DNA of 64,000 bases from a virus (Duplodnaviria; Caudoviricetes), in IMG/VR virus record IMGVR_UViG_3300017909_003066, positions 45,043 through 109,042 of that record; one strand, 5' to 3'. Below are positions 6,472 through 63,367 of the stretch, one piece after another. The notes beneath the pieces are model-generated. The model searched no databases and was not told the origin of the DNA. It was given only the letters and a program-made list of their open reading frames with translations. Each line of letters begins with the position of its first letter. The stretch's first letter is position 1. Made by a program: the position numbers and the translations under genes.

Positions 6472-8511
6472 TTACTTACTGGTTGCGACGTAGACTCCGT
6501 TCCATGTTTCATTTGTAATATTTTGTAAAGCCATTTCATTACATCTTCCAATCATAGTCTCATAATATTTTTTATTTTGCTGTGGTCCATTTTTTGCTAG
6601 TTTTTCTGCTTTGTCTATTGCTTTAGTCCACTCTGCTTTTCTATAATATTCTAAAAACAATTCGTGTGCCCTGTAATAGTTTTCCTTTTGTTCTTCTAAC
6701 ATTATAGTGAAAATTCTTGCTGGTTCTGTTTTACCTTTTACTGCAATCAAATCTAATTCTACGTACTTGAATAAATCATCTTTACTTGACTCACCTATTA
6801 GTAATTGTTGCCCATACTCTTTGGACTGTCCTTCAAGTCTTGCGGCAAGATTGACAGCATCTCCAAGCACTGAATAATCAAAACGTTGATCTGATCCCAT
6901 ATTACCGACGACAACATCGCCAGTGTTAATACCAATACCAATATTAATAGGAAGTAGTCCCTCACTCTCCAACTCATTGTTTAACTCCTTTAGTCCTTTT
7001 AACATATCAATTGCTGTTTGTGTTGCTAGTTTCTTTTGCTCAGGAACATCTAAAGGTGCGTTCCAAAAGGCCATTAATGCATCTCCAATATATTTGTCTA
7101 TTGTTCCTTGATTAGTCATAACAATATTTGTCATAGGAGTCATATAGCGATTAATTAATTTTGTTAATCCTTGTGGATTAGTTTTATACTGTTCTGAAAT
7201 CGGAGTAAAACCTCTTATGTCCGAAAACAGTATAGTAAGTTCTTTAGTTTCGCCTCCCAATTTAAGTAAATCTGGATTCTTCTGTAATTTTTTAACCATT
7301 GCAGGTGCAAGGTAATGTTCAAACTGTTTTTTAATTTGTTGTTTTAATTGGAACTCTCTAACAAAGCGATTGAATACTGCATGGAATCCAACTATGGTAG
7401 ATACTACTACAATCCAACTCCAATCCCATAACTGTAAATGCCTTGTAAACGTAAAATAAGCGCCGTACACGGTGGTTGAATAAACTGCTAATATAACTGC
7501 TCCAACTACCCAGTAAGGTGCACGTACGGCGGTTACAATAAGCAATAAACCTATGATTATAGACGTTATATACTCTAAGAATGTAGCATAATCATAACGT
7601 ACTATATTATCTCCATTTACAATAGTTTGGATAGCAGTTGCTGGTAAAATATGCCGAGAAACTTCTCCATTTGGTGTTGCAATAATACTACCTAAACCTT
7701 CAGCAGTTGTTCCAATTATTACTATTTTTCCTGCAAGTGGAGAATAATCTTCCTCTGCCAAACTGATTGATTCAAATTGTTTATTCCACCTAATCCAAAT
7801 TCTTCCATTAGCATCAGTTTGAATAGTTTGATAAGCAGGTACTCGCATAGCAATAATACCGCCTTCTCCTGCTTTTACTTGATAACTTGGATCTCCTACT
7901 GCAACTCTAATGGTTTCTATAGCAATGCTAGGATATACTTCTTCACCTATTTTCATCAACAATGGTAGGCGTCTTGTTACACCATCTATTTCAGGTGCAG
8001 TGTTTATTACTCCAACTCCGTCAGCATTTTGTCCTAGGATTTCTATTGGCCCTAACATACCAGGCCACTCAAATAACCACGGCATTGGATCACCTATTTT
8101 AGCAACACCTCTTGGCACTGCATTTTTGTTTACTCCTTGTGAAGTTCCAACCTGTGCAATGATAATACCGTTGCCGGAAAGTTTTTGTGCTAGTTCTAAA
8201 TCACCACCTAGCCTATCTGGTTCAGAAAACAATACTGGAAGAACAATTACTCCAACGCCTGTTTCTCTTAATTTTTGTATAACATCTGCAAGTACATCAC
8301 GTTTCCAAGGCCATTGCCCATACTTTTCAATAGCACGTTCATCTATTTCTAATATTGCAATATCTTGTGATAATACTGGTGTGTCATACTGTTGTATAAC
8401 ATCAAAGGATTTAAGTCGTAGTAATTGCTTTACATAAGGGTCGGATAACCCTATAAAAGATATGACTGCAAGGGTCAGAATAGCAGATACCCAATGTGTT
8501 AACCATTTCAT
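6472..8511 (-). CDS. CHASE2-domain class III adenylate cyclase
   Basis: CHASE2 (IDERAIEKYGQWPWKR, DGVTRRLPL), 3 TM helices, cyclase motifs FSDIRGFT, DKYIGDA, FDYSVLGDAVNLAARLEG. Confidence 0.92.
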   Translation of the reverse strand: MKWLTHWVSAILTLAVISFIGLSDPYVKQLLRLKSFDVIQQYDTPVLSQDIAILEIDERAIEKYGQWPWKRDVLADVIQKLRETGVGVIVLPVLFSEPDRLGGDLELAQKLSGNGIIIAQVGTSQGVNKNAVPRGVAKIGDPMPWLFEWPGMLGPIEILGQNADGVGVINTAPEIDGVTRRLPLLMKIGEEVYPSIAIETIRVAVGDPSYQVKAGEGGIIAMRVPAYQTIQTDANGRIWIRWNKQFESISLAEEDYSPLAGKIVIIGTTAEGLGSIIATPNGEVSRHILPATAIQTIVNGDNIVRYDYATFLEYITSIIIGLLLIVTAVRAPYWVVGAVILAVYSTTVYGAYFTFTRHLQLWDWSWIVVVSTIVGFHAVFNRFVREFQLKQQIKKQFEHYLAPAMVKKLQKNPDLLKLGGETKELTILFSDIRGFTPISEQYKTNPQGLTKLINRYMTPMTNIVMTNQGTIDKYIGDALMAFWNAPLDVPEQKKLATQTAIDMLKGLKELNNELESEGLLPINIGIGINTGDVVVGNMGSDQRFDYSVLGDAVNLAARLEGQSKEYGQQLLIGESSKDDLFKYVELDLIAVKGKTEPARIFTIMLEEQKENYYRAHELFLEYYRKAEWTKAIDKAEKLAKNGPQQNKKYYETMIGRCNEMALQNITNETWNGVYVATSK

Positions 8512-9999: not shown

Positions 10000-11065
10000 C
10001 TCCTAATTGATAGTCTCTATATTCAAAGTCGCCTTGTTGCATATTGATATTATATCCATTTGCTTGATTTAAACGTAATTCAAAAAAGTTACCCATACCA
10101 TCATCTCTACGTATTAACCAATCCGGTTTTTGATCATAAAGTTCAATACCGGTTTCAGGATCTTTTCCTAATTGTATTCCTTGATTTCTTTCATCAAGTG
10201 CACCTCGCATAAGTCTAGCAAGTGCTTCATTAATTAAATCTAAAACGTTCCGCAAAAAGTCCTGTCCTAAAAAATCAATATCTAGATCGGTCATCCATAA
10301 ACCCTCAGTCTGCACTGCTAGATAATCTTTATTCAGTTCATCAAATTCTAAAAAATCAAATCCCAAAAAGTCTGAAAGTTTTTTAATACGGTTTCTTTCT
10401 AATTCTTCTTCTATTTCTACTGGTTTTCTAATAACCAATAAGTTGTTAATCAAACTTTCGTCTATATCTAGTGTAATTGGATTCAATGGTTTAGATTTAG
10501 CAGTTTCTACAACCGTGGCTTGGAAAGCCTGATTTAGAATTACAGTGCCTACATCACTGGAAACTTCTATTTCTCCTACTACACAAATTTTACTTCCCAT
10601 CACTATGGTACAACTTGGTAGTAGGATAATAGTACTATTACCCGTTTCGTCAACAGTCATTGTAAAGTCTGTTCCTCTTACACCAATAACTGCTGTGGGT
10701 GTTGTTATTTTGACATTTTGTTTTGAGTTTTTTGCAATCTGACCACTTGCATATCGTACTGTTCCAAAAGACGCCTTGAGAGCGAGAGAACCAGTGGACG
10801 TATTAGGATCATATACAAACTCATCTATTACAAGTTTACTGTTTTCAGTTACATCGACTCTAGTGTCATCGACAAACTCAATTGATGTTCTTCCAACTTT
10901 TGTTTTTACAACATCATAACTTTCAATGCCAAAACCTTCATTGGAACGATATCCGTCACCATCCTTTCGGATAATATCTGCCTCACCGATCTGCTTGGTT
11001 ACTTCACCAATATTAGCATACGCGGTCGAGGTTAGAATGACCAATAACAGAACCAATATACGCAT
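9962..11065 (-). CDS. FecR-domain periplasmic protein
   Basis: Signal peptide; D.VKT..G...IEFVDDTRV.VTENSKL.ID; TPTAVIGVRGTDF. Confidence 0.85.
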   Translation of the reverse strand: MRILVLLLVILTSTAYANIGEVTKQIGEADIIRKDGDGYRSNEGFGIESYDVVKTKVGRTSIEFVDDTRVDVTENSKLVIDEFVYDPNTSTGSLALKASFGTVRYASGQIAKNSKQNVKITTPTAVIGVRGTDFTMTVDETGNSTIILLPSCTIVMGSKICVVGEIEVSSDVGTVILNQAFQATVVETAKSKPLNPITLDIDESLINNLLVIRKPVEIEEELERNRIKKLSDFLGFDFLEFDELNKDYLAVQTEGLWMTDLDIDFLGQDFLRNVLDLINEALARLMRGALDERNQGIQLGKDPETGIELYDQKPDWLIRRDDGMGNFFELRLNQANGYNINMQQGDFEYRDYQLGDGQNEIDIIQVQ

Positions 11066-38168: not shown

Positions 38169-38270
38169 GACTCCTTTTGTATTGTATATTCCTTTATCCT
38201 GACTATGTCAGTAGAAGAAGGTCTCCTTGTGTATAATTGGTTCTTTTTGTTATTATTATTACTTGTTATA

Positions 38271-38439
38271 AAAAGTGCAACTTTTCTGTTGCCAGGTAAG
38301 TTGCCAACCCCGTTAGCCTAAACTAGGCCGCAAGTGCTAGATTTTCATCTGCATTTGTAGTTTTCTTCGCGGTAACGGCGCTTAGATCCCGGTAACTCCA
38401 CTCTCCTACTAATCTATCAGTCGATCCTGCTTCAGGCCC
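38271..38439 (-). ncRNA. ssrA: tmRNA coding piece (two-piece, alphaproteobacterial type); tag (A)ADENLALAA
   Basis: 5' GGGCCTG acceptor strand, GGATCGAC, tag ORF 38323-38352, ACCTGGCAACAGAA motif; 3' end approximate. Confidence 0.88.
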
Positions 38440-38440
38440 A

Positions 38441-38629
38441 TCATAAAGACATTGATCCAACAGGCTTACAAATATATTCTACTGTGTCCCAATCACCATC
38501 TGATGGTATTGTTTCATACACTTTTAACATATCTGTACATTCTACTTTGGATTCAAACCATTGTACGTCTTGTTCAAGGCAGGTCGAGCCTAAACAAACT
38601 GTAAGTAAAATGTGCCAAATAACTTCCAT
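38441..38629 (-). CDS. 62 aa Cys-containing protein inside the tmRNA intervening segment
   Basis: AAGGA RBS right after the tmRNA CCA; stop codon ends 1 nt before G1; 4 Cys. Confidence 0.7.
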   Translation of the reverse strand: MEVIWHILLTVCLGSTCLEQDVQWFESKVECTDMLKVYETIPSDGDWDTVEYICKPVGSMSL

Positions 38630-38642
38630 TTCAATGTCCTTA

Positions 38643-38707
38643 TGGTGGACCTGCCCGGTACTGCCCCGGGGTCCTGTCTAGTGTTTGAATTGCTTCAACG
38701 TTACAAC
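38643..38707 (-). ncRNA. ssrA: tmRNA acceptor piece
   Basis: T arm CCCGG-GGCAGTA-CCGGG, then CAGGTCC-A-CCA pairing with GGGCCTG (G3.U70); 5' end approximate. Confidence 0.85.
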
Positions 38708-38709
38708 TA

Positions 38710-38740
38710 TATTTATATACTCACTTTTTGCTTTTGTCAA
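38710..38740 (-). promoter_or_regulatory. Composite sigma70/late promoter for tmRNA
   Basis: TTGACA-N17-TATAAA, with a full TATAAATA. Confidence 0.65.
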
Positions 38741-52055: not shown

Positions 52056-52931
52056 CTACCTTCTTTTAGAAACTTTTGCTCTATTATGTACTTGTTTTAA
52101 TAGATTAACATACCCAGGACCTGCTTTCACTATGTCATCTATAATACGCATAATAGGTGCGTATGCTTGTGCAAATCTAGGTGGAATACCCATGCCTCTT
52201 GTAGTCATACTTAAAACTTTGTAGGCAAAAGGTAAGTCTCTGTTAGGTACGCCTAACAGTTTTAACATCTGTACATCTTTAGTATCTGGTTGTACTGGAT
52301 CTGGTACACTAATATTAGGTTCTGTATCTTTAACAGATCTACTTTCTAAATCATAATCTTTAACAAACAAAATATAGTAGTCAACAATATCACTGTTTCT
52401 GCCTCTTGCCTTCAAAGCGATTTCTAATTCAGTAACTGCTATACGTCTTTCGTTTGGATTTAATCTTGAATAGTTTGCAATTTTCCTACGTAAAGTACTG
52501 TACTTACTGTTAGATAATCCGTTGTCTATTTTTGTTAAGTCTTGTGAATCACTTAATTTAGGTGCTGAATCTACAAATGCTCTTAATAATCGTTTTGCCG
52601 CTAGTCTAGGAAACGTTTTGCGTTCTCGCATCACTTTACCTGCTCTAGGGTCACGTAATTTGTCTAGTATTTTCTTATCACCGTCTACTATGTTTAACAG
52701 GTTATATAAATCGTTTCCACTACTTCTAAAAAAGTCCCACATTCCCCATTTCAAAACTTCTTGCGAATATGCTCTGGTATATTTCCTACTAATTGGATAG
52801 TGCCTCATTACGTGCAGTGCTAGGAAATACAGTAACACAAGGTCCGATGCGTCAGTATAACTTAACCTACTGACGCCATCAGTATTACGTATCATTTTGC
52901 CTTCTGTAATATAATCTAAAAATTTATACAT
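52056..52931 (-). CDS. Late hypothetical protein
   Basis: FLDYITE N-terminus; operon. Confidence 0.7.
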   Translation of the reverse strand: MYKFLDYITEGKMIRNTDGVSRLSYTDASDLVLLYFLALHVMRHYPISRKYTRAYSQEVLKWGMWDFFRSSGNDLYNLLNIVDGDKKILDKLRDPRAGKVMRERKTFPRLAAKRLLRAFVDSAPKLSDSQDLTKIDNGLSNSKYSTLRRKIANYSRLNPNERRIAVTELEIALKARGRNSDIVDYYILFVKDYDLESRSVKDTEPNISVPDPVQPDTKDVQMLKLLGVPNRDLPFAYKVLSMTTRGMGIPPRFAQAYAPIMRIIDDIVKAGPGYVNLLKQVHNRAKVSKRR

Positions 52932-54166
52932 TAACCAAAGTCCTTAGGAGTTGTAAAATTACGTCTGCTAAATTCTAATCTGTCGACTATTTTGACTGCT
53001 CCTCCTACATGATCAATGGCTACATAGCCTTCTGGTGAACCTGCTTCATAACCATCTGCTGTTTTATAAAAATGTGCAATGCTTTCAATATTGTTTAATT
53101 TGTTTATGAATAATTTTTTAAGGTTAGTAATTTCTTTCATGAATTCTATTATACCAGATAAACCTTTTCTATTTGAATTTATAAAGTTCATGTTGTTTTG
53201 TATTTTAGCAAGTCTATTTTTGACTGCTGGTTTTTCAGGATCTTGATTTTTAAGTTTAGCAATTTCGCCTTCTATTCTTTGTTTGTACCAATCAATAAAA
53301 CCGTTTAGAAACTCTCCAGGATCTCCTGCAAGTTTACCTTGTTTTATATTAGTATTAATCCATATTTTAAAGTTTGCTATAAAATCTTCATTAGACTTCA
53401 TTGCCTCCCATACCGCATTTGGAACAGCCTTATAGGCTCCCATTGCGTCAGCCAAATCTTGTTTCGCTTGTGCTGTTTCTTCTTTAGTCATCAACACACT
53501 TCCTGATACATCTTTGAAAAATGCATCATCAAACCAAACATCACTTGAACGTTTTAGTTTGCTTAAATCTACTTCATAGTTTGCTTTTGCATCTGCTAAA
53601 GTTGTGCCTACATAATTTGTATGGAATATTATTCCAAATTTTGCTTGTCCTATTCTTTTGCCGATATCACTGTCCACTGGCACTGCGTAGGTGATAAGTT
53701 GTGGCTTGAAAGTATACATTGCCTCGCCGTCAATAGTTTCTTCACGCCTTGAACTTTCGTCAAACATAAAGTCGCCTTGTAGTACGCCTGTGATGCCTAG
53801 TTTACTGAGATAATCAAATGCTAAATGAAGTTTAGGTAATGCACCTGATTCTCCATAATGTCTATCAATGTCTTCGTGACTAAAACCTAGTTTAGGTGTT
53901 TTTGCAAATACTCCTTTAGCACCTACAAAAAACTTTTTGCTTTCAGGATCAATGCCACATACTATTGCAGGAGCACCGTCCCATTTTACTGAAACTCTTA
54001 ATTTTTTATTTGTACGACCTTTTAGCATATCAGCAAAAAGCATCATTTGGTTAAGGGCATATTCGGCACCTTCTTTACCACGGTTGAGTGCTTCTTCCTC
54101 AACATGTTCCATGTGAGTGTTTTTGCCTGCTGATTCTTGTAGTTTAATTACTTCTTCAATTAACAT
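52931..54166 (-). CDS. DUF6267-like protein with RNA-ligase-like KxDG motif
   Basis: KNTHMEH.E, VKWDGAPA, QGDFMF, PEGYV, KIVDRLEFSR.NF. Confidence 0.7.
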   Translation of the reverse strand: MLIEEVIKLQESAGKNTHMEHVEEEALNRGKEGAEYALNQMMLFADMLKGRTNKKLRVSVKWDGAPAIVCGIDPESKKFFVGAKGVFAKTPKLGFSHEDIDRHYGESGALPKLHLAFDYLSKLGITGVLQGDFMFDESSRREETIDGEAMYTFKPQLITYAVPVDSDIGKRIGQAKFGIIFHTNYVGTTLADAKANYEVDLSKLKRSSDVWFDDAFFKDVSGSVLMTKEETAQAKQDLADAMGAYKAVPNAVWEAMKSNEDFIANFKIWINTNIKQGKLAGDPGEFLNGFIDWYKQRIEGEIAKLKNQDPEKPAVKNRLAKIQNNMNFINSNRKGLSGIIEFMKEITNLKKLFINKLNNIESIAHFYKTADGYEAGSPEGYVAIDHVGGAVKIVDRLEFSRRNFTTPKDFG

Positions 54167-54428
54167 CGTCTAATTCGCTTTTGTCGTTTGATTTAATTTT
54201 CTTAATACCACGCATAAATTTGGCAGGATCTCCTGAGCGAATTGAATTGTAAAAACGTTTTTCTAGATCCTGTGCTGTATCATTTTCGAAGTTGCGTCTA
54301 ATCATCTCTACCACATTAATAGCACTTTCTATAACGTGACTTGCTCTACTTTCCACAAGGTTTTCGGCCTTTTTAGTAACAGAAAGATCGTTAAGTTCTT
54401 CCAATAGACTTCTAGTTTTGCGTTTCAT
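54156..54428 (-). CDS. Hypothetical late protein
   Basis: MKRKTRSLLEEL...KFMRGI; TAAATA upstream. Confidence 0.7.
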   Translation of the reverse strand: MKRKTRSLLEELNDLSVTKKAENLVESRASHVIESAINVVEMIRRNFENDTAQDLEKRFYNSIRSGDPAKFMRGIKKIKSNDKSELDDVN

Positions 54429-54500
54429 TGTAACAACTCCTTAACGTTATTTAGTGGTTCTGTTTGGTAAATAACGATAGTAAGGAAAGCGATATACATT

Positions 54501-55307
54501 ATGGATCTCTATAGTTCTAAGTTAACTGATAAAATTATAACACATAATTTTAAAAACCGCAGTCTTTTATTTGCCGAATTATCCCAAATTGCTTATTTTG
54601 ATCAAGAATCAGTAAAAAAATTAGCAAGAAAACTTGGATTTACAACTGTTGAATTCTACGATCTACGTGGTGCTCAAGCATATAGACTAATGAATAAACA
54701 TGATATCGTAATTGCATGTAGAGGCACACAACCAAAAGAATTTAATGATATAAAAGCAGACGCTAGTGCATGGCCGATTATATCTGAAACTGTAGGCAGA
54801 GTGCATAGCGGATTTAAAAATGAAGTTGATAAACTATGGCCTAAAATAGAAGAAGATTTATCACGCGAATCTAAAAGCAGAGACGTTTGGTTTTGTGGAC
54901 ATAGTTTAGGTGCCGCAATGGCAACTATTGTAAGTTCGCGTTGTAGAGGCAGTGAAATATGTCCTAACCCACAAGAACTTTACACATTTGGTTCACCTAG
55001 AGTGGGTTGGGGAAACTATATTAATCACCACTCATTTAATCATCATCGTTGGGTAAACAACAACGATATTGTTTGCAGGGTGCCTTTATGGTTAATGGGA
55101 TACCAGCATCATGGCACAGAACATTATCTTAACACTTGGGGAAATTATAGACAGCCTACAGGTTGGCAAAGAATCAAAGACAGACTACGCGGAATGTGGC
55201 GTGGCATTAAAAAATTTGAAATAGATAATTTCTCTGATCATTCAATTGGTTTATACGTTGAATATATAAACAATTACAAAAACGATTTAGAAACACCACA
55301 AATTTAA
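54501..55307 (+). CDS. Lipase class 3
   Basis: CRGT, VHSGF, GHSLG nucleophile, TFGSPRVG, DIV.RVP, DH. Confidence 0.9.
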   Translation: MDLYSSKLTDKIITHNFKNRSLLFAELSQIAYFDQESVKKLARKLGFTTVEFYDLRGAQAYRLMNKHDIVIACRGTQPKEFNDIKADASAWPIISETVGRVHSGFKNEVDKLWPKIEEDLSRESKSRDVWFCGHSLGAAMATIVSSRCRGSEICPNPQELYTFGSPRVGWGNYINHHSFNHHRWVNNNDIVCRVPLWLMGYQHHGTEHYLNTWGNYRQPTGWQRIKDRLRGMWRGIKKFEIDNFSDHSIGLYVEYINNYKNDLETPQI

Positions 55308-56263
55308 ATAAACAACGAAGAAACAGATTCTTCGTTTGTTACTCTTCTAATTGCTTCACCAAATAATTGTGCAACACTTACTTGTCTAGTTTTTTTACAA
55401 TTTTTAGGACACTTATTTGCAATACTATCTGTAATTACTAATTCATCTAGTACACTTTTTTCAATTTTTTGACAGGCATCATCTGAAAGTACTCCGTGTG
55501 TTATGTAAGCACGAACACTTAAAGCACCTTGTTCCATTATTGCTTTTGCGGCGTTACAAAGTGTACCACCCGAATCAACAATGTCATCTACAAGTATAGC
55601 ATGTTTACCTTTAACACTACCAATAATATTCATTACTTCTGACTTACCTGCTTCTGGTCTCATCTTATCTACTATTGCAATATCACCATGAAACATATCA
55701 GCAAATTTTCTAGCACGAACTACACCACCTGCATCTGGAGAAACAAAAACAGTTTTTGCTTGTTCTACATCTGGATCATCAATAATTCCAATAGTGCGTT
55801 TAATATCTTTTGCAAATATTACACGACTTGTTAAATCATCTACAGGAATATCAAAGAACCCCTGTATCTGTCCTGCATGTAAATCCATAGTTAAGATTCT
55901 ATCAGCACCAGATGTTGTTAATAGGTTAGCAACCAATTTAGCAGTGATAGGTGTACGCGATGCACTTTTACGATCTTGTCTAGCATAACCATAATATGGT
56001 ATGACTGCTGTGATACGGGATGCCGAACTACGTCTTGCCGCATCTATCATGACCATCAGTTCCATTAAACTATCATTAACCGGTGAACTTGTGGGTTGGA
56101 TAATAAAAATATCTTCGCCTCTAACGTTTTCTAAAAATTCTACACTTGTTTCGCCATCTGCAAACGTACTAATTTTTGCAGGTACAAGTGTTGCAAAACA
56201 ATGTTCTGCAATTTGTTGTGCTAATTTGATATTAGCATTTCCTGTAATGATTTTCATCTTCAA
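55304..56263 (-). CDS. prs: Ribose-phosphate pyrophosphokinase
   Basis: FADGE, PYYGYARQDRK, DLHAGQIQGFF, VSPDAGG, DDIVDSGGT. Confidence 0.97.
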   Translation of the reverse strand: MKMKIITGNANIKLAQQIAEHCFATLVPAKISTFADGETSVEFLENVRGEDIFIIQPTSSPVNDSLMELMVMIDAARRSSASRITAVIPYYGYARQDRKSASRTPITAKLVANLLTTSGADRILTMDLHAGQIQGFFDIPVDDLTSRVIFAKDIKRTIGIIDDPDVEQAKTVFVSPDAGGVVRARKFADMFHGDIAIVDKMRPEAGKSEVMNIIGSVKGKHAILVDDIVDSGGTLCNAAKAIMEQGALSVRAYITHGVLSDDACQKIEKSVLDELVITDSIANKCPKNCKKTRQVSVAQLFGEAIRRVTNEESVSSLFI

Positions 56264-56350
56264 GACCGTGCCTTTCTTGGTGTGATGTTAAAAATTTAGT
56301 TAATTGTAATATAACTTATTTACAAAGTCAAGTGAAAAGTATATCAGAAA

Positions 56351-56372
56351 GGAAGGGCCTTTCGACCCTTCC
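56351..56372 (-). terminator. Terminator after alkB
   Basis: GGAAGGGTC-GAAA-GGCCCTTCC followed by TTT. Confidence 0.75.
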
Positions 56373-56384
56373 CGGATTGGACTA

Positions 56385-57449
56385 TTAAGCCAATTTTGCC
56401 GCTATTTCTCTTTCTGCTTCTGTAGCCATCTCTTCGTCCCATTTGTCTAAATGCTTTTTCATAAATGCATTAAACACTGGAGGTATTAGTGCTAACGCAA
56501 AGAGTGTAAAATAGCCTACACCTGTGTTTGGTGCACCTACTTCATCTAATTCCCAGAAGTGTGTTTCACCTCTGTCATGATGATCAGCCTGACGACCTAT
56601 CTCAATAAAGAACCATGAAGTGAATAGTGTTGAGTTATCCCAAGAATGTCTATAGTCTATTGGTTCGCTCTTAACACGTACCAAACCATAGTGTTCTAGA
56701 TAGTTAAGTGCTTCTAACTCAAAGTTTGATATTACCCAAACCAGAGCCAAACACGCAACTCCTAACCAACCACCTGCAAAGAAGAACAATGCAAGTGAAG
56801 GAACACTCATCATATAACCTCTTATCCATCTGTTACTAATAGATATAAAAGGTTTCTGTAAACGTTTCAATCTGTTCTTTTCCATTTCAAACAAGAACTT
56901 GGATTGACCCAAGTGTGATTTAACATAGTGTGAATAGATATCACGTCCTCTAGGTGCGGTTGCAGGATCATCTTCACTTGCTAATTCCAAATGATGATTG
57001 TACACATGAGCATAACAGAAATGTGCAGAACCTGATAACGCCATCATCCAACGACTGATTACAAATGCAACGCCTTTGGTGTGCGATAGTTCATGCCCAT
57101 AGATTATACCTATGCCTGCAAATATACCTGTTGATAATACTGCACCTAACAGTTCAACACCTGCCATACCATTATAGATCTGATATGCTAGTGCAATCTG
57201 AAGTGCAACAAAGACTGGCAACATCAAATACATTACTGTATTCTGCAACCAGGGGATGCCTAAGGTTTCACCATTCTCATCAACTGCTCCACGTGTTTGA
57301 ACATTGATAAGGGTGTCAAGTATAATGCCTATTCCCAATAAGCCTACACCTGTCCATGCCCATATTCCACCTGCTAACACTCCAGCGAGTGTAACAAGTA
57401 TCAATAACGGTGCAATGAAGTACCTTATATTTACGAGAAGTTTTTTCAT
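56385..57449 (-). CDS. alkB: Alkane 1-monooxygenase (membrane diiron)
   Basis: HELSH, HVYNHH, DPATA.RG, NYLEHYGL, DHH His boxes; TM helices. Confidence 0.88.
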   Translation of the reverse strand: MKKLLVNIRYFIAPLLILVTLAGVLAGGIWAWTGVGLLGIGIILDTLINVQTRGAVDENGETLGIPWLQNTVMYLMLPVFVALQIALAYQIYNGMAGVELLGAVLSTGIFAGIGIIYGHELSHTKGVAFVISRWMMALSGSAHFCYAHVYNHHLELASEDDPATAPRGRDIYSHYVKSHLGQSKFLFEMEKNRLKRLQKPFISISNRWIRGYMMSVPSLALFFFAGGWLGVACLALVWVISNFELEALNYLEHYGLVRVKSEPIDYRHSWDNSTLFTSWFFIEIGRQADHHDRGETHFWELDEVGAPNTGVGYFTLFALALIPPVFNAFMKKHLDKWDEEMATEAEREIAAKLA

Positions 57450-59206: not shown

Positions 59207-59518
59207 ATGAACAAGACGTTTAAAGAAGGTATCGAAAAAGGTGCCGAACAACTAGCACAATCAGTGCGTGAAACACTTCCAAAAGTACAATTCAACAAGA
59301 ATGGCTATGAAATACGTACTCAAGTATTAGACATGGCTAAACATTTCACAGAGTTTGAATATTCAAGCAAATGGAATGGCTGGGAAATCACATCTAAACG
59401 TGATCCAGAGTCTGGAGAAATTGTAAACAAAGTTGGTATGCCAGAGATTCCTGGCGTAGATGATGTTTTAGAAACTGCTGAAAAGTTTTATAACTTCATC
59501 AACAATACAAAGAAATAA
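59207..59518 (+). CDS. Conserved phage hypothetical protein
   Basis: KNGYEIR..VL.MAK...P..DDVL..AEKFYNFI; sigma70 promoter and terminator. Confidence 0.75.
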   Translation: MNKTFKEGIEKGAEQLAQSVRETLPKVQFNKNGYEIRTQVLDMAKHFTEFEYSSKWNGWEITSKRDPESGEIVNKVGMPEIPGVDDVLETAEKFYNFINNTKK

Positions 59519-59531
59519 TTTTAAATGAAAG

Positions 59532-59560
59532 TAGGGCAGTAGAAATATTGCCCTATTTTT
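59532..59560. terminator. Probably bidirectional terminator
   Basis: TAGGGCAGTA...TATTGCCCTA followed by a T run. Confidence 0.7.
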
Positions 59561-60032
59561 ATGTCCAAGGTCTACCTGTAACTAATCCACCCGAGTTGGC
59601 ATTGTCAACCAAATTGCTGTTGTCGCCAGCGGCGTATAGTGTAGGTAAGTTTGTTTTTGTTTTCGTGTTCAATGCTCTGTAGTAGACAGCATTGGTATCA
59701 CCAGCCGCCAGACCTTTTCTTTTTGTGGTAGCAATTCTTAATTTTTCTTCCTGTCTCTGTCTTTTGAAACCGTTTGAGCCTGAGTATCTAGGAATGCAAT
59801 AAACAGAATCACCGTCAACCAAACCTGCGGCTGTTAGTGTGTCACTGCCATTGTTAGTTTGATTTATTGAAGGATCTTTTGTTGCGTGAATTTCTGCATA
59901 CATGGCAGTCACAATCTCTTGACCTTCCACAGCCTGAGCCAACGCAGTCAAACCATTCATAGTGGTTGAACCCATTGTGACCGTTAGATCAAATTGTACA
60001 CCTGTTAAACCTTTACACTTAATTGTCGCCAT
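59559..60032 (-). CDS. Late protein with N-terminal ubiquitin-like (beta-grasp) domain
   Basis: IKCKGLTGVQFDLTV...QAVEG...TL...GL.DGD aligns by eye with ubiquitin; TAAATA at 60051-60056. Confidence 0.55.
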   Translation of the reverse strand: MATIKCKGLTGVQFDLTVTMGSTTMNGLTALAQAVEGQEIVTAMYAEIHATKDPSINQTNNGSDTLTAAGLVDGDSVYCIPRYSGSNGFKRQRQEEKLRIATTKRKGLAAGDTNAVYYRALNTKTKTNLPTLYAAGDNSNLVDNANSGGLVTGRPWT

Positions 60033-60088
60033 TATATATTCTCCTAACAATATTTATGTTAAATAGTAGTGTCGCAAGGGAGGAAAGC

Positions 60089-60604
60089 ATGGCCGACACG
60101 TTAGTTCTTAACGCAGATGCAAAACCGTATAGTATATTACCTCTAAGTACAATAACATGGCAAGAATCAATTAAACACCTAGTAATGAACAGGGTCACTG
60201 TTCTTGAATGGTATGATGATTGGGTAGTAAGTTCACCTAGTTGGGAAACAAAAGTTCCTGCTGTTGTAATGGTAAAAGACTATATTAAAAAGAATAGCAG
60301 TGTAAGACTATCAAAATACAATGTATTTTTACGTGATCAGTTTGTGTGTCAATACTGTAACTTACAACTATCACACAAAAAACAGTGTACAATTGACCAT
60401 GTAATGCCTATCAGTCGGGGTGGTCGTAATACTTGGACAAATTGTGTTACTGCATGTGGCCCGTGTAATGTTGCCAAAGGCAATAAACTATATCCAAAAC
60501 CCAAACGCATACCAGTAAAACCAACCTATTACGATTTAGTAAAAAACAAAGAACTTCTAAATTTAAAACTCAAACATCAATCCTGGACTAATTACATCGT
60601 GTAA
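60089..60604 (+). CDS. HNH endonuclease (start MADTL)
   Basis: RDQFVCQYC, TIDHVMPISRGG, W.N.VTAC..CN..K. Confidence 0.9.
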   Translation: MADTLVLNADAKPYSILPLSTITWQESIKHLVMNRVTVLEWYDDWVVSSPSWETKVPAVVMVKDYIKKNSSVRLSKYNVFLRDQFVCQYCNLQLSHKKQCTIDHVMPISRGGRNTWTNCVTACGPCNVAKGNKLYPKPKRIPVKPTYYDLVKNKELLNLKLKHQSWTNYIV

Positions 60605-60943: not shown

Positions 60944-61162
60944 CTATCTATATCTAAAGGTAATTCTACCTTTGCTTAGATCGTAAGGTGTCATTTCAAC
61001 CTTAACTTTATCACCCATCAAAACTCTAATTTTGTTTTGTTTCATTTTGCCATTAGCATAGGCAATGATCTCATGGCCACTTTCTAATTTGACCTTGTAC
61101 ATCTGATTGGGTAGGATATCTAAGCAGGTACCTTCAAACTCCATTAAGTCTGCTTTACTCAA
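60944..61162 (-). CDS. infA: Translation initiation factor IF-1
   Basis: EG...[36 protein letters not shown]. Confidence 0.95.
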
Positions 61163-61923
61163 AAAAGTTTTGTCTCCACTTTATTCCAAAATTCAATACG
61201 AGCATTCATTGCCTCGATAGCAACTGCTTCTGCTTCAACATACGCAAGAGGGTCATTGCCACATAAGTTTTCAACTAATTTTGTAGCCATTGGTCCGTGT
61301 TCATCTCCGTCTAATTCTATATGCCTTTGTAGGTAATAGTGAAACTTCTTTGCTTCGTATGAATTAATATTAAGTTGTTGTAAAATTCCTGTGAACATTC
61401 CAGGAATCACCGCTTCTCTACCGAAGGTAAAAGCACTTGCAATAACATGTTTTTTACCTGTTTCGATAAATGAAAATGTTTTTTTCATAAAGTCAATACA
61501 GCATTCAGGCACATTAGGTGAATTGTCTAAAGCAAATTCAAGGCCTCTTGACTTTACTGTTTCTAAAAATTTTAATACAGGAGTAGTGTTTGCTCCAACT
61601 TCCATCATTGCTTGTAGGTATAAATCAAAATGAGAAATAGAGCCTCCGCCTAAATCTTTATCAGATTCTTCCCCCCAAATGATTTCATTAATGAGTCTTG
61701 CACTTTCATCTCGTGTATGTTCTTCTGGTAACCATAAGTCGCCACTAGGACAAACTCTATGTTGTAGTGCTTTTGCTAAACTCATAAAGTCCCATACAGG
61801 AAAAACATGATGTTCCATAAACACCCTAAGGTCTTCAATAGTTTGAATCATATTAGTAGACAGTAATGGGTGTGTGGTTAATTCTAATTGTTTAACTTCT
61901 ATATTCTTTAATGGTAGTTTCAT
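61159..61923 (-). CDS. DUF3050 heme-oxygenase-like diiron enzyme
   Basis: [42 protein letters not shown]. Confidence 0.85.
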
Positions 61924-63367
61924 TTAATCCACTTCTTTCTAACTCTATGTCGCTTCCAAACAATACTTTTAGTGTTCCTCTTTGTATTGCTTTGTTCCAT
62001 ACTTTTTCGATTGCACAATTAGTTAAGAACACATAGTCTGGCACTGTGATAGGACAATTTGACTTGCATAATCTATAAACAGGACATACTTTACAGTGTT
62101 TATCATACCGTGTGTAATCTACCTTCTTAATAGTTACCTCTTCTATTGCAGATATCTTGCCACTAATAAAACTATCATCAACATGCGGACAAGTTCTTAC
62201 GTTACCTGCAACATCAACACTTAATACTTGATCATCATCTGCTCCGCACACTGTTGATATTGTTGGCAGTATTTGTTTTTTAAGTGTGTCTCCGTACCCT
62301 AGCACACTTCTTGGACCCGTATGAAAAAGATTATTGATCATTATACCATGATCTTTCAAACCATTTGTTTGTTCTATATTACATTCTATAAACTGATCCA
62401 TTATGTCTCTAAATGTTTTAAGGTTCGTGCCTTGTATTACATGTTCCATACTAACACTACCTTCGTGGTCTTCGTCAGCGTGAGCACGACCTAATGTATA
62501 ACTTATACTTACAAGATCAGGATTTAATCCTACTTCTATCATATAGTTTCTAAAGAAATTGTTTATGTCAAAAAGATTACAATTAGTTGCACTTACAACA
62601 GGATTAAAACTAAAACGAATTTTATCTCTATTTTTTTGCATGTTCTTAAGTACATCAACAGTAATTTTATCCCACAAAAATTCCTTACCACGTAAAGCAA
62701 CATGTCCTGGGCCATCATGACTGATACCAAACAATGCCATGCCTTGTATTTTTTCTAAATAATCAATATGTTTTTGTCTAAGTGGTGTACCGTTTGTAGC
62801 AAAGTAATATTCTAATCCAGGTCTATCAAGTGCTTCTATTATTGGCGTAATAGATTTCCAATAAAGTAAAGTTTCACCTCCCCAAAAATCAACTCTTTCT
62901 AGTTCACTAAAATCTAATTCTGTACCAATAGTTTCTAAGAAATAATCAAGTGTCCATATTTTTGCACGTTCATCTGGATTACCAATATCTTTTTGTAAAC
63001 AGTATGAACAACTGTAATTACAAGCATGACCTAAAAGTATTCTTAACCACTTTGGTTTCCTACTTTTAGTTTTCTTTTTGACATGTCCTGTTGCTTCTTC
63101 CCAAACAGCATCTGGCTCTGTTACATCACTTAAAGGATCAAGTTTATCTGAATAAAGTCCGTTGGTGTAATTACTATACACAACTTTTTGTCCTGTATTT
63201 TTTATATTGAATACAGTGTATGGACCGTCGTCTATTACTCTTTGCGTACCATCTACTATACTTGATACTTCTCTAGTTATATCTCCATCATCTATAAGAT
63301 GCACAACATCCTGAGCAGAATTTTTTAGTTGTACTAAAGGAATAATCTTGTCATCAATCTTATCCAT
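61892..63367 (-). CDS. Radical SAM protein with SPASM-type C-terminal domain
   Basis: CNYSCSYC, FWGGE, TNG; CGA...CP...CKVC.....C...CP...C. Confidence 0.9.
   Translation of the reverse strand: MDKIDDKIIPLVQLKNSAQDVVHLIDDGDITREVSSIVDGTQRVIDDGPYTVFNIKNTGQKVVYSNYTNGLYSDKLDPLSDVTEPDAVWEEATGHVKKKTKSRKPKWLRILLGHACNYSCSYCLQKDIGNPDERAKIWTLDYFLETIGTELDFSELERVDFWGGETLLYWKSITPIIEALDRPGLEYYFATNGTPLRQKHIDYLEKIQGMALFGISHDGPGHVALRGKEFLWDKITVDVLKNMQKNRDKIRFSFNPVVSATNCNLFDINNFFRNYMIEVGLNPDLVSISYTLGRAHADEDHEGSVSMEHVIQGTNLKTFRDIMDQFIECNIEQTNGLKDHGIMINNLFHTGPRSVLGYGDTLKKQILPTISTVCGADDDQVLSVDVAGNVRTCPHVDDSFISGKISAIEEVTIKKVDYTRYDKHCKVCPVYRLCKSNCPITVPDYVFLTNCAIEKVWNKAIQRGTLKVLFGSDIELERSGLNETTIKEYRS

What the first reader, a model, noticed from the sequence alone, without database searches (positions are those of the whole stretch)
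59559..60032. Ubiquitin-like domain in a phage late protein
Seen: IKCKGLTGVQFDLTV vs ubiquitin IFVKTLTGKTITLEV; STTMNGLTALAQAVEG vs SDTIENVKAKIQDKEG; DTLTAAGLVDGDSVYCIPR vs RTLSDYNIQKESTLHLVLR. There is no GG at the domain end; a basic helix and a tail ending NSGGLVTGRPWT follow. A late-type promoter lies upstream. Established: some bacterial antiphage systems conjugate ubiquitin-like proteins. Inference: a beta-grasp virion or adaptor protein, or a decoy for host E1/E2/JAB defence enzymes. The alignment is by eye only.
Basis: partly seen in the sequence, partly recalled or inferred. Interest (0 to 1): 0.75.

Follow-up and report, generated by a model that had tools for sequence, protein, structure and literature searches.

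The report
Ubiquitin-capped adaptor protein of marine phage
A small late gene of an uncultured giant marine phage encodes a true relative of ubiquitin fused to a new, highly conserved 70-residue module; related phages attach sugar-binding domains to that module, so the protein is most likely a head-less virus-particle adaptor and not a decoy for bacterial ubiquitin-like defences.

Summary
Window 59559-60032 (minus strand) encodes a 157-aa protein. Residues 1-85 are a ubiquitin-family beta-grasp domain. A family profile hits only ubiquitins in the PDB (E about 1e-5). The AF2 model has pLDDT 92, and VIA-align gives Z 11.1 at 1.6 A to ubiquitin. Some relatives pass Pfam PF00240 and match eukaryotic ubiquitin at about half of the aligned positions.

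There is no GG after the domain. Residues 86-157 are a basic helix plus a YYR..LPTxY..GGLxxGRPW tail. They form a separate, more conserved module with no known fold. This module occurs with or without the Ubl, and with or without C-terminal lectin heads (Laminin_G_3, PA14/GLEYA, ILEI).

In many relatives a small acidic partner gene lies directly upstream, and fibre-like or virion genes lie downstream. The window's lineage lacks the head and the adjacent partner. An HNH gene is inserted upstream here.

A NATAAATA late-type motif, an AGGAG ribosome-binding site and a terminator frame the gene. dN/dS is about 0.17.

Best reading (0.55): a late, virion-associated adaptor from a modular adhesin family. 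The decoy reading is weak (0.07). No cultured phage carries the family. Virion location is inferred, not shown. The scan noted this family before on other genomes.

The parts
59559..60032 (-). Whole CDS: 157 aa plus a TAA stop (P0001)
   Evidence: dN/dS is about 0.18 across 25 relatives, and all of them end at RPW[TS]-stop.
59778..60032 (-). Residues 1-85: ubiquitin-family beta-grasp domain. It is acidic (net -4). There is no GG at its end.
   Evidence: Profile against PDB; AF2 model; Foldseek; VIA-align Z 11.1; charge.
59562..59777 (-). Residues 86-157: conserved basic module (net +7). It consists of a helix, then YYR, LPTxY and GGLxxGRPW. It also occurs without the Ubl in other phage proteins.
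   Evidence: Alignments; architectures. Folded alone it gives pLDDT 71.8 and no fold match.
59718..59765 (-). Helix 90-105 (RQRQEEKLRIATTKRK). It holds the nearly invariant Q94, L98, A101 and R105.
   Evidence: DSSP on the model; invariant columns.
59565..59576 (-). GRPW, the family's invariant C-terminal motif. In relatives the lectin heads begin right after it.
60051..60058 (-). CATAAATA, a T4-late-type promoter-like motif 26 nt upstream of the ATG
   Evidence: Sequence; positional enrichment of NATAAATA; conservation in relatives.
60041..60045 (-). AGGAG ribosome-binding site, 8 nt before the ATG
   Evidence: Read from the sequence.
59532..59555 (.). Hairpin TAGGGCA-N10-TGCCCTA with T-rich runs on both sides. 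It is a likely bidirectional terminator shared with the convergent ORF 59207-59518.
   Evidence: Read from the sequence.

Best explanation
P0001 is a head-less member of a modular family of phage surface (adhesin or adaptor) proteins from uncultured aquatic T4-like and jumbo phages.

Shown:
- Residues 1-85 are a diverged ubiquitin-family domain.
- Residues 86-157 are a separate, more conserved basic module (helix plus an extended LPTxY..GRPW tail).
- The same module occurs alone, with the Ubl, and with C-terminal lectin domains (Laminin_G_3, PA14/GLEYA, ILEI).
- In many lineages a small acidic gene overlaps the family gene's start, and fibre-like or virion-protein genes follow.
- The gene is under purifying selection and has its own late-type promoter motif, ribosome-binding site and terminator.

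Inferred:
- The basic module is the docking element. It fixes the protein to the virus particle, on the capsid or on the fibre/baseplate apparatus, perhaps through the acidic partner.
- The Ubl, the loop insertions and the C-terminal heads are the displayed parts.
- In this phage only the Ubl is displayed. It may serve as a stable, acidic cap that keeps the basic module folded and soluble, as ubiquitin does for its ribosomal-protein fusions.
- The Ubl is not a conjugatable modifier.
- It probably descends from a captured eukaryote-type ubiquitin, because different subfamilies keep different ubiquitin-specific motifs.
For: Ubl identity. Family members pass Pfam PF00240 (P0219, 49.9 bits against a cut-off of 25.4; about 15 clusters with precomputed PF00240). 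P0219 against mono-Ub gives E about 1e-12 with about half the aligned positions identical.

Modularity: heads of Laminin_G_3, PA14/GLEYA and ILEI. Among 267 retrieved relatives there are 128 Ubl+module, 83 Ubl+module+C-extension, 20 module+C-extension and 17 module only. Domains are inserted in loops in P0232, P0191 and P0183. The tree shows the N- and C-terminal types intermixed.

Context: the partner gene lies directly upstream in L002, L006-8, L011, L012, L014/15, L020, L035-38 and L050. The partner is acidic (net -7 to -14) and the module is basic (+7). Downstream genes have fibre-type N-termini, match phrog_677 (baseplate wedge tail fibre connector), or are homologues of cyanophage 'virion structural protein' and 'tail fiber protein' genes. 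The locus is orthologous with lectin-headed members: family gene, FA_desaturase, DUF6267.

Expression signals. Selection: dN/dS 0.16-0.18. Abundance: 279 relatives, many from Tara samples, on contigs up to 383 kb.
Against: No member has been seen in a virion, and no cultured phage carries the family (tblastn; HMM on four genomes). In this phage and its closest relatives the gene sits among metabolic and accessory genes, not in a structural block, and its flanks differ between close relatives. The other genes behind NATAAATA motifs here include Hsp20- and ClpS-like genes, so the motif does not mark structural genes only. P0001 has no lectin head, and no partner gene is found in the 109 kb fragment. 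Its role may therefore differ from that of the headed members. The module has no structural match that would show how it docks.
Confidence: 0.55

Rival explanations
1. Non-virion assembly factor. The module, with or without its acidic partner, acts inside the infected cell as a chaperone or matchmaker for the neighbouring fibre or adhesin proteins, and is not kept in the particle.
For: There is tight translational coupling to a small acidic gene and adjacency to fibre-like genes. The module alone folds with only moderate confidence (pLDDT 71.8), as expected for a protein that folds on a partner. Phage fibre chaperones are often small and encoded next to fibres (established knowledge of T4 gp38 and gp57A, from memory).
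Against: Lectin heads, Ig-like repeats and the Ubl are fused to the module in many relatives. That fits a displayed protein better than a transient chaperone. In this phage no fibre gene is adjacent.
Confidence: 0.15
2. Small basic nucleic-acid-binding or internal head protein. The basic helix and tail bind DNA or RNA, and the acidic Ubl regulates that binding.
For: The module has pI 10.3 and net charge +7, and the helix carries +6. The gene has late-type signals.
Against: Relatives carry extracellular-type lectin heads directly after GRPW, which makes no sense for an internal DNA-binding protein. Several module-only relatives are not basic overall. There is no match to a known DNA-binding fold.
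Confidence: 0.08
3. Counter-defence decoy. The Ubl mimics the ubiquitin-like protein of host Bil-type or CBASS Cap2/Cap3-type systems and blocks their E1, E2 or JAB enzymes.
For: It is a genuine ubiquitin-family fold in a phage. The gene lies in a plastic accessory region, as many anti-defence genes do. Bacterial Ubl-conjugating defences exist (PMC10097602 and PMC10557695, titles and abstracts seen).
Against: The Ubl has no free C-terminus and no GG after the last strand. The Ubl is dispensable: 42 of 267 relatives lack it, while the module is always kept. The most conserved residues lie in the module, not the Ubl. Lectin heads and fibre-gene neighbours in relatives point to a structural role. 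The sequence affinity is to eukaryote-type ubiquitin; a bacterial defence Ubl (8tyz) appears only at rank 44 with 6% identity. No E1 or JAB gene is in the record.
Confidence: 0.07

Closest known systems
Ubiquitin family proper (Pfam PF00240: ubiquitin, NEDD8, ISG15, integral Ubl domains)
   Same: Same fold: Z 11.1, rmsd 1.6 A over 72 residues. Profile-level sequence relation with shared motifs (KGLTG against KTLTG; EG after the helix; GD/GS before the last strand). Some family members pass Pfam's cut-off and match ubiquitin at about half of the aligned positions.
   Different: It is an integral N-terminal domain with no C-terminal GG, so it is not a conjugatable modifier. P0001 alone is too diverged for a single-sequence Pfam hit. 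The loop between strands 3 and 4 is rebuilt. It is encoded by a bacteriophage.
Phage lambda tail assembly protein gpI (TAPI family), a phage structural protein with an N-terminal ubiquitin-like beta-grasp domain (from memory: Iyer, Burroughs and Aravind 2006)
   Same: A Ubl domain at the N-terminus of a phage morphogenesis-associated protein.
   Different: There is no sequence relation: P0001 matches no PHROG family. No JAB/NlpC (gpK-like) neighbour is present. P0001's Ubl is of the eukaryote-type ubiquitin family. The attached module is different and new.
Modular decoration or adhesin proteins such as T4 Hoc and T5 pb10 (anchor domain plus displayed Ig-like domains; from memory)
   Same: Works alike in outline: a small conserved anchor, with variable displayed domains at the termini and in loops. 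They are dispensable and patchily distributed.
   Different: There is no sequence or fold relation. The anchor here is a 70-residue basic helix-plus-tail module. The heads are lectins (LamG_3, PA14/GLEYA, ILEI) or a Ubl. Attachment to the particle is not shown.
Ubiquitin-ribosomal protein fusions (eS31 and eL40)
   Same: Ubiquitin sits N-terminal to a short, very basic, poorly structured extension. HMMER alignments run on into eS31.
   Different: The module profile alone does not hit eS31 or anything else in the PDB, so the overlap is alignment spill-over. There is no GG cleavage site and no zinc ribbon.
Other eukaryote-type ubiquitins outside eukaryotic cells: Bacteroides fragilis BfUbb (PMC5705921) and baculovirus v-ubi (6kna, in the list)
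   Same: A eukaryote-type ubiquitin sequence carried by a bacterium or a virus. BfUbb also lacks the terminal GG. v-ubi is found in virions (from memory).
   Different: Those are free-standing ubiquitins. This one is fused to a phage-specific module and lies in bacteriophage genomes.

Membership tests
Ubiquitin family (PF00240, beta-grasp Ubl) | beta-grasp b-b-a-b-b fold that superposes on ubiquitin | tested here: met
   AF2 pLDDT 92.1. Foldseek's top hits are ubiquitin, ISG15 and NEDD8, TM 0.74-0.80. VIA-align gives Z 11.1, rmsd 1.6 A over 72 aa.
Ubiquitin family (PF00240, beta-grasp Ubl) | Significant sequence-profile relation to ubiquitin | tested here: met
   Family profile A1: mono-Ub E about 1e-5. 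KGLTG clade alone, A4: E 4e-4 to 2e-3, with only ubiquitins on top. Relatives P0219, P0171 and others pass Pfam's cut-off.
Ubiquitin family (PF00240, beta-grasp Ubl) | The single sequence passes Pfam's gathering score | tested here: not met
   hmmscan of P0001 against Pfam-A gives no PF00240 match even at E up to 10.
Conjugatable ubiquitin-like modifiers (ubiquitin, SUMO, bacterial Bil/CBASS-type Ubl) | Free or exposable C-terminal Gly or Gly-Gly directly after the last strand | tested here: not met
   The sequence after strand 5 is CIPRYSGSNGFKRQ. The only GG (147-148) lies 62 residues later, inside the conserved module, and is not invariant.
Conjugatable ubiquitin-like modifiers (ubiquitin, SUMO, bacterial Bil/CBASS-type Ubl) | E1 (ThiF), E2 or JAB genes in the same genome or operon | tested here: inconclusive
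   No PF00899 or PF14464 match in the 109 kb record, but the record is only about 31% of the genome. The neighbouring genes are an HNH endonuclease and small ORFs.
Lambda gpI / TAPI tail assembly proteins | Sequence membership, and a gpK-like JAB/NlpC neighbour | tested here: not met
   P0001 matches no PHROG family at E up to 0.01. No JAB domain is in the record.
New family: Ubl +/- basic GRPW module +/- lectin head (unnamed) | Helix RQxxKLxIAxxKR, then YYR, LPTxY and GGLxxGRPW | tested here: met
   All motifs are present in P0001. The invariant and nearly invariant columns are listed. The HMM of module-only proteins hits the window ORF at 2e-29.
New family: Ubl +/- basic GRPW module +/- lectin head (unnamed) | Acidic partner gene overlapping the start codon | tested here: not met
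   The partner is absent upstream in the window and in the whole 109 kb record. It is present in relatives at 66% identity (L035-38) and at 83% identity over residues 1-59 (L050). A divergent copy lies 11 kb away in a relative with 82% identity.
Phage virion decoration or adhesin proteins | Physical presence on the particle | not testable with these tools
   No isolate carries the family. This needs virion proteomics or cryo-EM.

The most novel reading that the evidence does not exclude
An ancestor of aquatic T4-like and jumbo phages captured a eukaryote-type ubiquitin gene and made it the cap of a previously unknown two-part 'plug-and-display' system. In this system a basic 70-residue GRPW module and a small acidic partner mount exchangeable heads (ubiquitin, LamG, PA14/GLEYA, ILEI, Ig-like repeats) on the virus particle. 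P0001 would then be ubiquitin itself displayed on a phage surface, in one of the more abundant marine jumbo-phage lineages.
Probability: 0.3. Interest if true: 0.75.

Novelty: new variant of a known kind. Interest (0 to 1): 0.55.

Why it matters
Ubiquitin-fold domains are known in a few phage tail proteins, and ubiquitin-like conjugation is now known as a bacterial defence. A ubiquitin-family domain of the eukaryotic type inside bacteriophage genomes has not turned up in the papers I could search. Here it is widespread in ocean and lake metagenomes and always joined to one unknown module.

If the virion-adaptor reading is right, the family defines a new anchor for phage adhesins. It could also serve as a natural display scaffold and help read host-recognition genes in uncultured phages. 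The ubiquitin cap would be a clear case of a eukaryotic protein reused by a bacterial virus. For annotation, it gives a name and domain borders to several hundred 'hypothetical proteins'.

Tried and rejected
- **Origin from a ubiquitin-eS31 fusion gene.** PDB alignments ran on into eS31. The module profile alone hits nothing in the PDB at E up to 10, so I rejected this.
- **Known fold for the module.** The model of residues 86-157 (pLDDT 71.8) gave a best VIA-align Z of 2.6 and no Foldseek match.
- **Homologue in a cultured phage.** tblastn of P0001, L008's member, P0190 and two partner proteins against 50,697 phage records found nothing useful. An HMM search of HTVC008M, Melnitz, S-H9-2 and S-RIM2 found nothing.
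- **Single-sequence searches of P0001.** Pfam, PHROGs and PDB gave nothing. The ESM Atlas gave only low scores of 0.76-0.77, which are leads at most.
- **Exact TATAAATA.** It is not enriched in the window (7 sites against 9.4 expected). Only the position of NATAAATA relative to start codons is enriched.
- **Locus searches.** The search for related loci with alignment A1 failed for lack of a conserved stretch. P0144 gave no locus.
- **Complex prediction.** I tried a homotrimer of P0001, then module P0176 with partner P0366. The machine could not be reached in 12 tries. There is no verdict of any kind.
- **Literature.** A search for the Pfam 'G1RFP' family gave nothing. Searches for phage-encoded ubiquitin gave no paper on this family.

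Full report
**What is there.** The window is the last 64 kb of a 109 kb IMG/VR virus record that CheckV rates 31% complete. That implies a genome of roughly 350 kb. Near-identical genes lie on marine contigs of 300-383 kb. The record's cyclase-like protein is most similar to those of Pelagibacter phage HTVC008M and Methylophilales phage Melnitz. NrdA matches T4-like cyanophages. The window also carries six tRNAs, a tmRNA and a bacterial-type IF-1. It is therefore a large T4-related marine bacteriophage, not a eukaryotic virus.

The finding's ORF is on the minus strand, ATG at 60032 and TAA at 59561-59559, 157 aa. It is preceded by AGGAG, 8 nt upstream, and by CATAAATA, 26 nt upstream. A hairpin follows that also ends the convergent ORF 59207-59518.

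**The ubiquitin-like domain is real.**
- P0001 alone matches nothing in Pfam, PHROGs or the PDB.
- It has hundreds of relatives: 279 and 128 cluster representatives.
- A profile of 25 of them hits only ubiquitins in the PDB. Mono-ubiquitin scores E about 1e-5, with profile positions 4-79 aligned to Ub 1-70.
- AlphaFold2 on a 60-sequence alignment gives pLDDT 92.1 and pTM 0.84, with strand-strand-helix-strand-strand order.
- Foldseek's best PDB hits are all ubiquitin, ISG15 or NEDD8.
- VIA-align gives Z 11.1, rmsd 1.6 A over 72 residues.

Some relatives are much closer to ubiquitin. P0219 passes Pfam PF00240 at 49.9 bits against a cut-off of 25.4. It aligns to human ubiquitin at E about 1e-12, with about half the positions identical, including VKAKIQD and YNIQK. 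About fifteen clusters carry precomputed PF00240.

Three flavours of the domain exist:
- 'MGMQITVQ..VKAKI..QQLTFNG..YNIQK';
- 'ITVQSxLN..';
- 'YKGLTG..DEGL', the flavour of P0001.

Each keeps a different subset of ubiquitin's own motifs. This suggests a common ancestor that looked like ubiquitin itself. That step is an inference.

**The rest of the protein is a separate, more conserved module.** Residues 86-157 are a basic helix (90-105) followed by an extended tail with YYR, LPTxY and GGLxxGRPW. The nearly invariant residues of the whole family lie here: R93, Q94, L98, A101, R105, L129, P130, Y133, L150, R154, P155 and W156.

The module also occurs without the Ubl. It stands alone as proteins of 73-93 aa that begin MAANGIST. 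It also sits in front of lectin domains. Among 267 retrieved relatives I counted 128 Ubl+module, 83 Ubl+module+C-extension, 20 module+C-extension and 17 module only. The sample is biased by how it was collected.

The C-extensions are Laminin_G_3, PA14/GLEYA or ILEI. Whole domains are also inserted in loops:
- a LamG-like domain between the helix and YR..LPT in P0232;
- repeats in the last Ubl loop in P0191;
- an insert before GRPW in P0183.

A tree of the module shows the N- and C-terminal types intermixed, so shuffling has been frequent. Folded alone, the module reaches only pLDDT 71.8 and matches no known fold. In the full-length model it reaches 79-96.

**Genomic context.** In many lineages a small, strongly acidic gene ends in an ATGA overlap with the family gene's start. 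It encodes 77-134 aa with net charge -7 to -14 and the motif RFKQI..YSN.P.E..VT. I found this in L002, L006-8, L011, L012, L014/15 and L020. It also holds in relatives of P0001 itself, at 66% identity (L035-38) and at 83% over residues 1-59 (L050).

Genes downstream of the family gene in those loci include:
- proteins with fibre-type N-termini;
- a match to phrog_677, 'baseplate wedge tail fiber protein connector';
- homologues of cyanophage 'virion structural protein' and 'tail fiber protein' genes, which lie in the gp16-gp17 island of those phages.

On a 167 kb contig the order is ligase, HNH, ClpP, cupin, aminotransferase, partner, family gene (PA14/GLEYA), then further on FA_desaturase and DUF6267. 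The window keeps the order family gene, FA_desaturase, DUF6267, so the locus is orthologous.

In the window's own lineage there is no lectin head and no adjacent partner. A relative at 82% identity has a divergent partner copy 11 kb away. A relative at 83% identity shares the window's order radical-SAM, DUF3050, IF-1, orf104, Ubl gene, but lacks the HNH gene. The HNH endonuclease at 60023-60604 is therefore an insertion here. Other close relatives have entirely different flanks.

**Expression signals and selection.** Exact TATAAATA is not enriched in the window. However, 7 of the 15 NATAAATA sites lie 8-80 nt upstream of a same-strand start, where about 0.8 would be expected. NATAAATA or CTAAATA sits 25-32 nt before the ATG in most partner-less relatives, whatever lies upstream. 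The other genes behind this motif here include Hsp20- and ClpS-like genes, so the motif does not by itself mean 'structural'. Median pairwise dN/dS over 25 relatives is 0.18 for the Ubl and 0.16 for the module, and every copy ends at RPW[TS]-stop.

**Reading.** The best-supported account is that the basic module is a docking element and the other parts are displayed. P0001 would then be a head-less adaptor whose only displayed part is an acidic ubiquitin cap. It would be made late and mounted on the particle. Whether it sits on the capsid or on the fibre apparatus cannot be told. I put this at 0.55.

The rivals are a non-virion assembly factor (0.15), a basic nucleic-acid-binding or internal protein (0.08) and a decoy for host Ubl-conjugating defences (0.07). 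The decoy idea fails on four points:
- the Ubl has no free C-terminus;
- many relatives lack the Ubl altogether;
- conservation is highest in the module;
- the sequence affinity is to eukaryote-type ubiquitin, not to bacterial defence Ubls.

No E1 or JAB gene is in the record, though the record is a fragment.

**Limits.** No member has been seen in a virion, and no cultured phage has the family. The complex predictor could not be reached, so partner binding and oligomer state are untested.

Earlier notes of this scan on other genomes describe the same family and reach a similar reading. They are AI notes, not independent evidence. I reached the domain structure, the heads, the partner gene and the context from my own calls.

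Noticed in passing
window 38232-38735 (-): ARAGORN calls a permuted tmRNA gene with tag peptide ADENLALAA in this phage. There are also six tRNA genes (Leu-taa, Ile-tat, Arg-tct, Trp-cca, Arg-gcg, Thr-tgt).
   Followed up: no
window 60023-60604 (+), likely ATG at 60089: An HNH endonuclease gene lies directly upstream of the Ubl gene on the other strand. A relative with the same gene order (L028) lacks it, so it is a recent mobile insertion.
   Followed up: partly
window 59207-59518 (+): The convergent 103-aa ORF matches Pfam PF24182 'Gene 1 ring forming protein' just above the cut-off (22.7 against 22.6 bits, last 15 residues only). Homologues lie next to the Ubl gene or next to the partner gene in relatives (L024, L026, L028, L052).
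   Followed up: partly
window 60944-61162 (-): A 72-aa bacterial-type translation initiation factor IF-1 homologue (PF01176, E 6.5e-23) is encoded by the phage.
   Followed up: no
window 52931-57449 and 61159-63367: An accessory cluster: DUF6267, a class 3 lipase, ribose-phosphate pyrophosphokinase, a fatty-acid desaturase, DUF3050 and a radical-SAM protein. The order FA_desaturase then DUF6267 is kept in distant relatives.
   Followed up: partly
window 6472-8511 (-): A 679-aa protein is 54-57% identical to the 'adenylate/guanylate cyclase' proteins of Pelagibacter phage HTVC008M and Methylophilales phage Melnitz. These are the nearest cultured relatives found.
   Followed up: no
window, 15 sites, e.g. 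60058, 51520, 51047, 40005, 19806, 19213, 17017 (-): NATAAATA is strongly concentrated 8-80 nt upstream of same-strand start codons (7 of 15 sites against about 0.8 expected). It is a candidate late-promoter motif of this phage. It precedes Hsp20-like and ClpS-like genes as well.
   Followed up: partly
L003 (382,860-bp Tara contig), around 10001-10480: A relative at 83-84% identity sits among an aminotransferase, a plastocyanin-like protein, PEPCK, a tRNA-synthetase-like gene and ABC-transporter genes on a 383 kb contig. This is an unusually metabolic gene set for a phage.
   Followed up: no
P0001 residues C6 and C78 (window 60015-60017 and 59799-59801): Both cysteines are invariant within the P0001 clade. 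By the alignment they map to ubiquitin V5 and L69, on neighbouring strands 1 and 5. A disulfide is conceivable, but I could not check it without coordinates.
   Followed up: no
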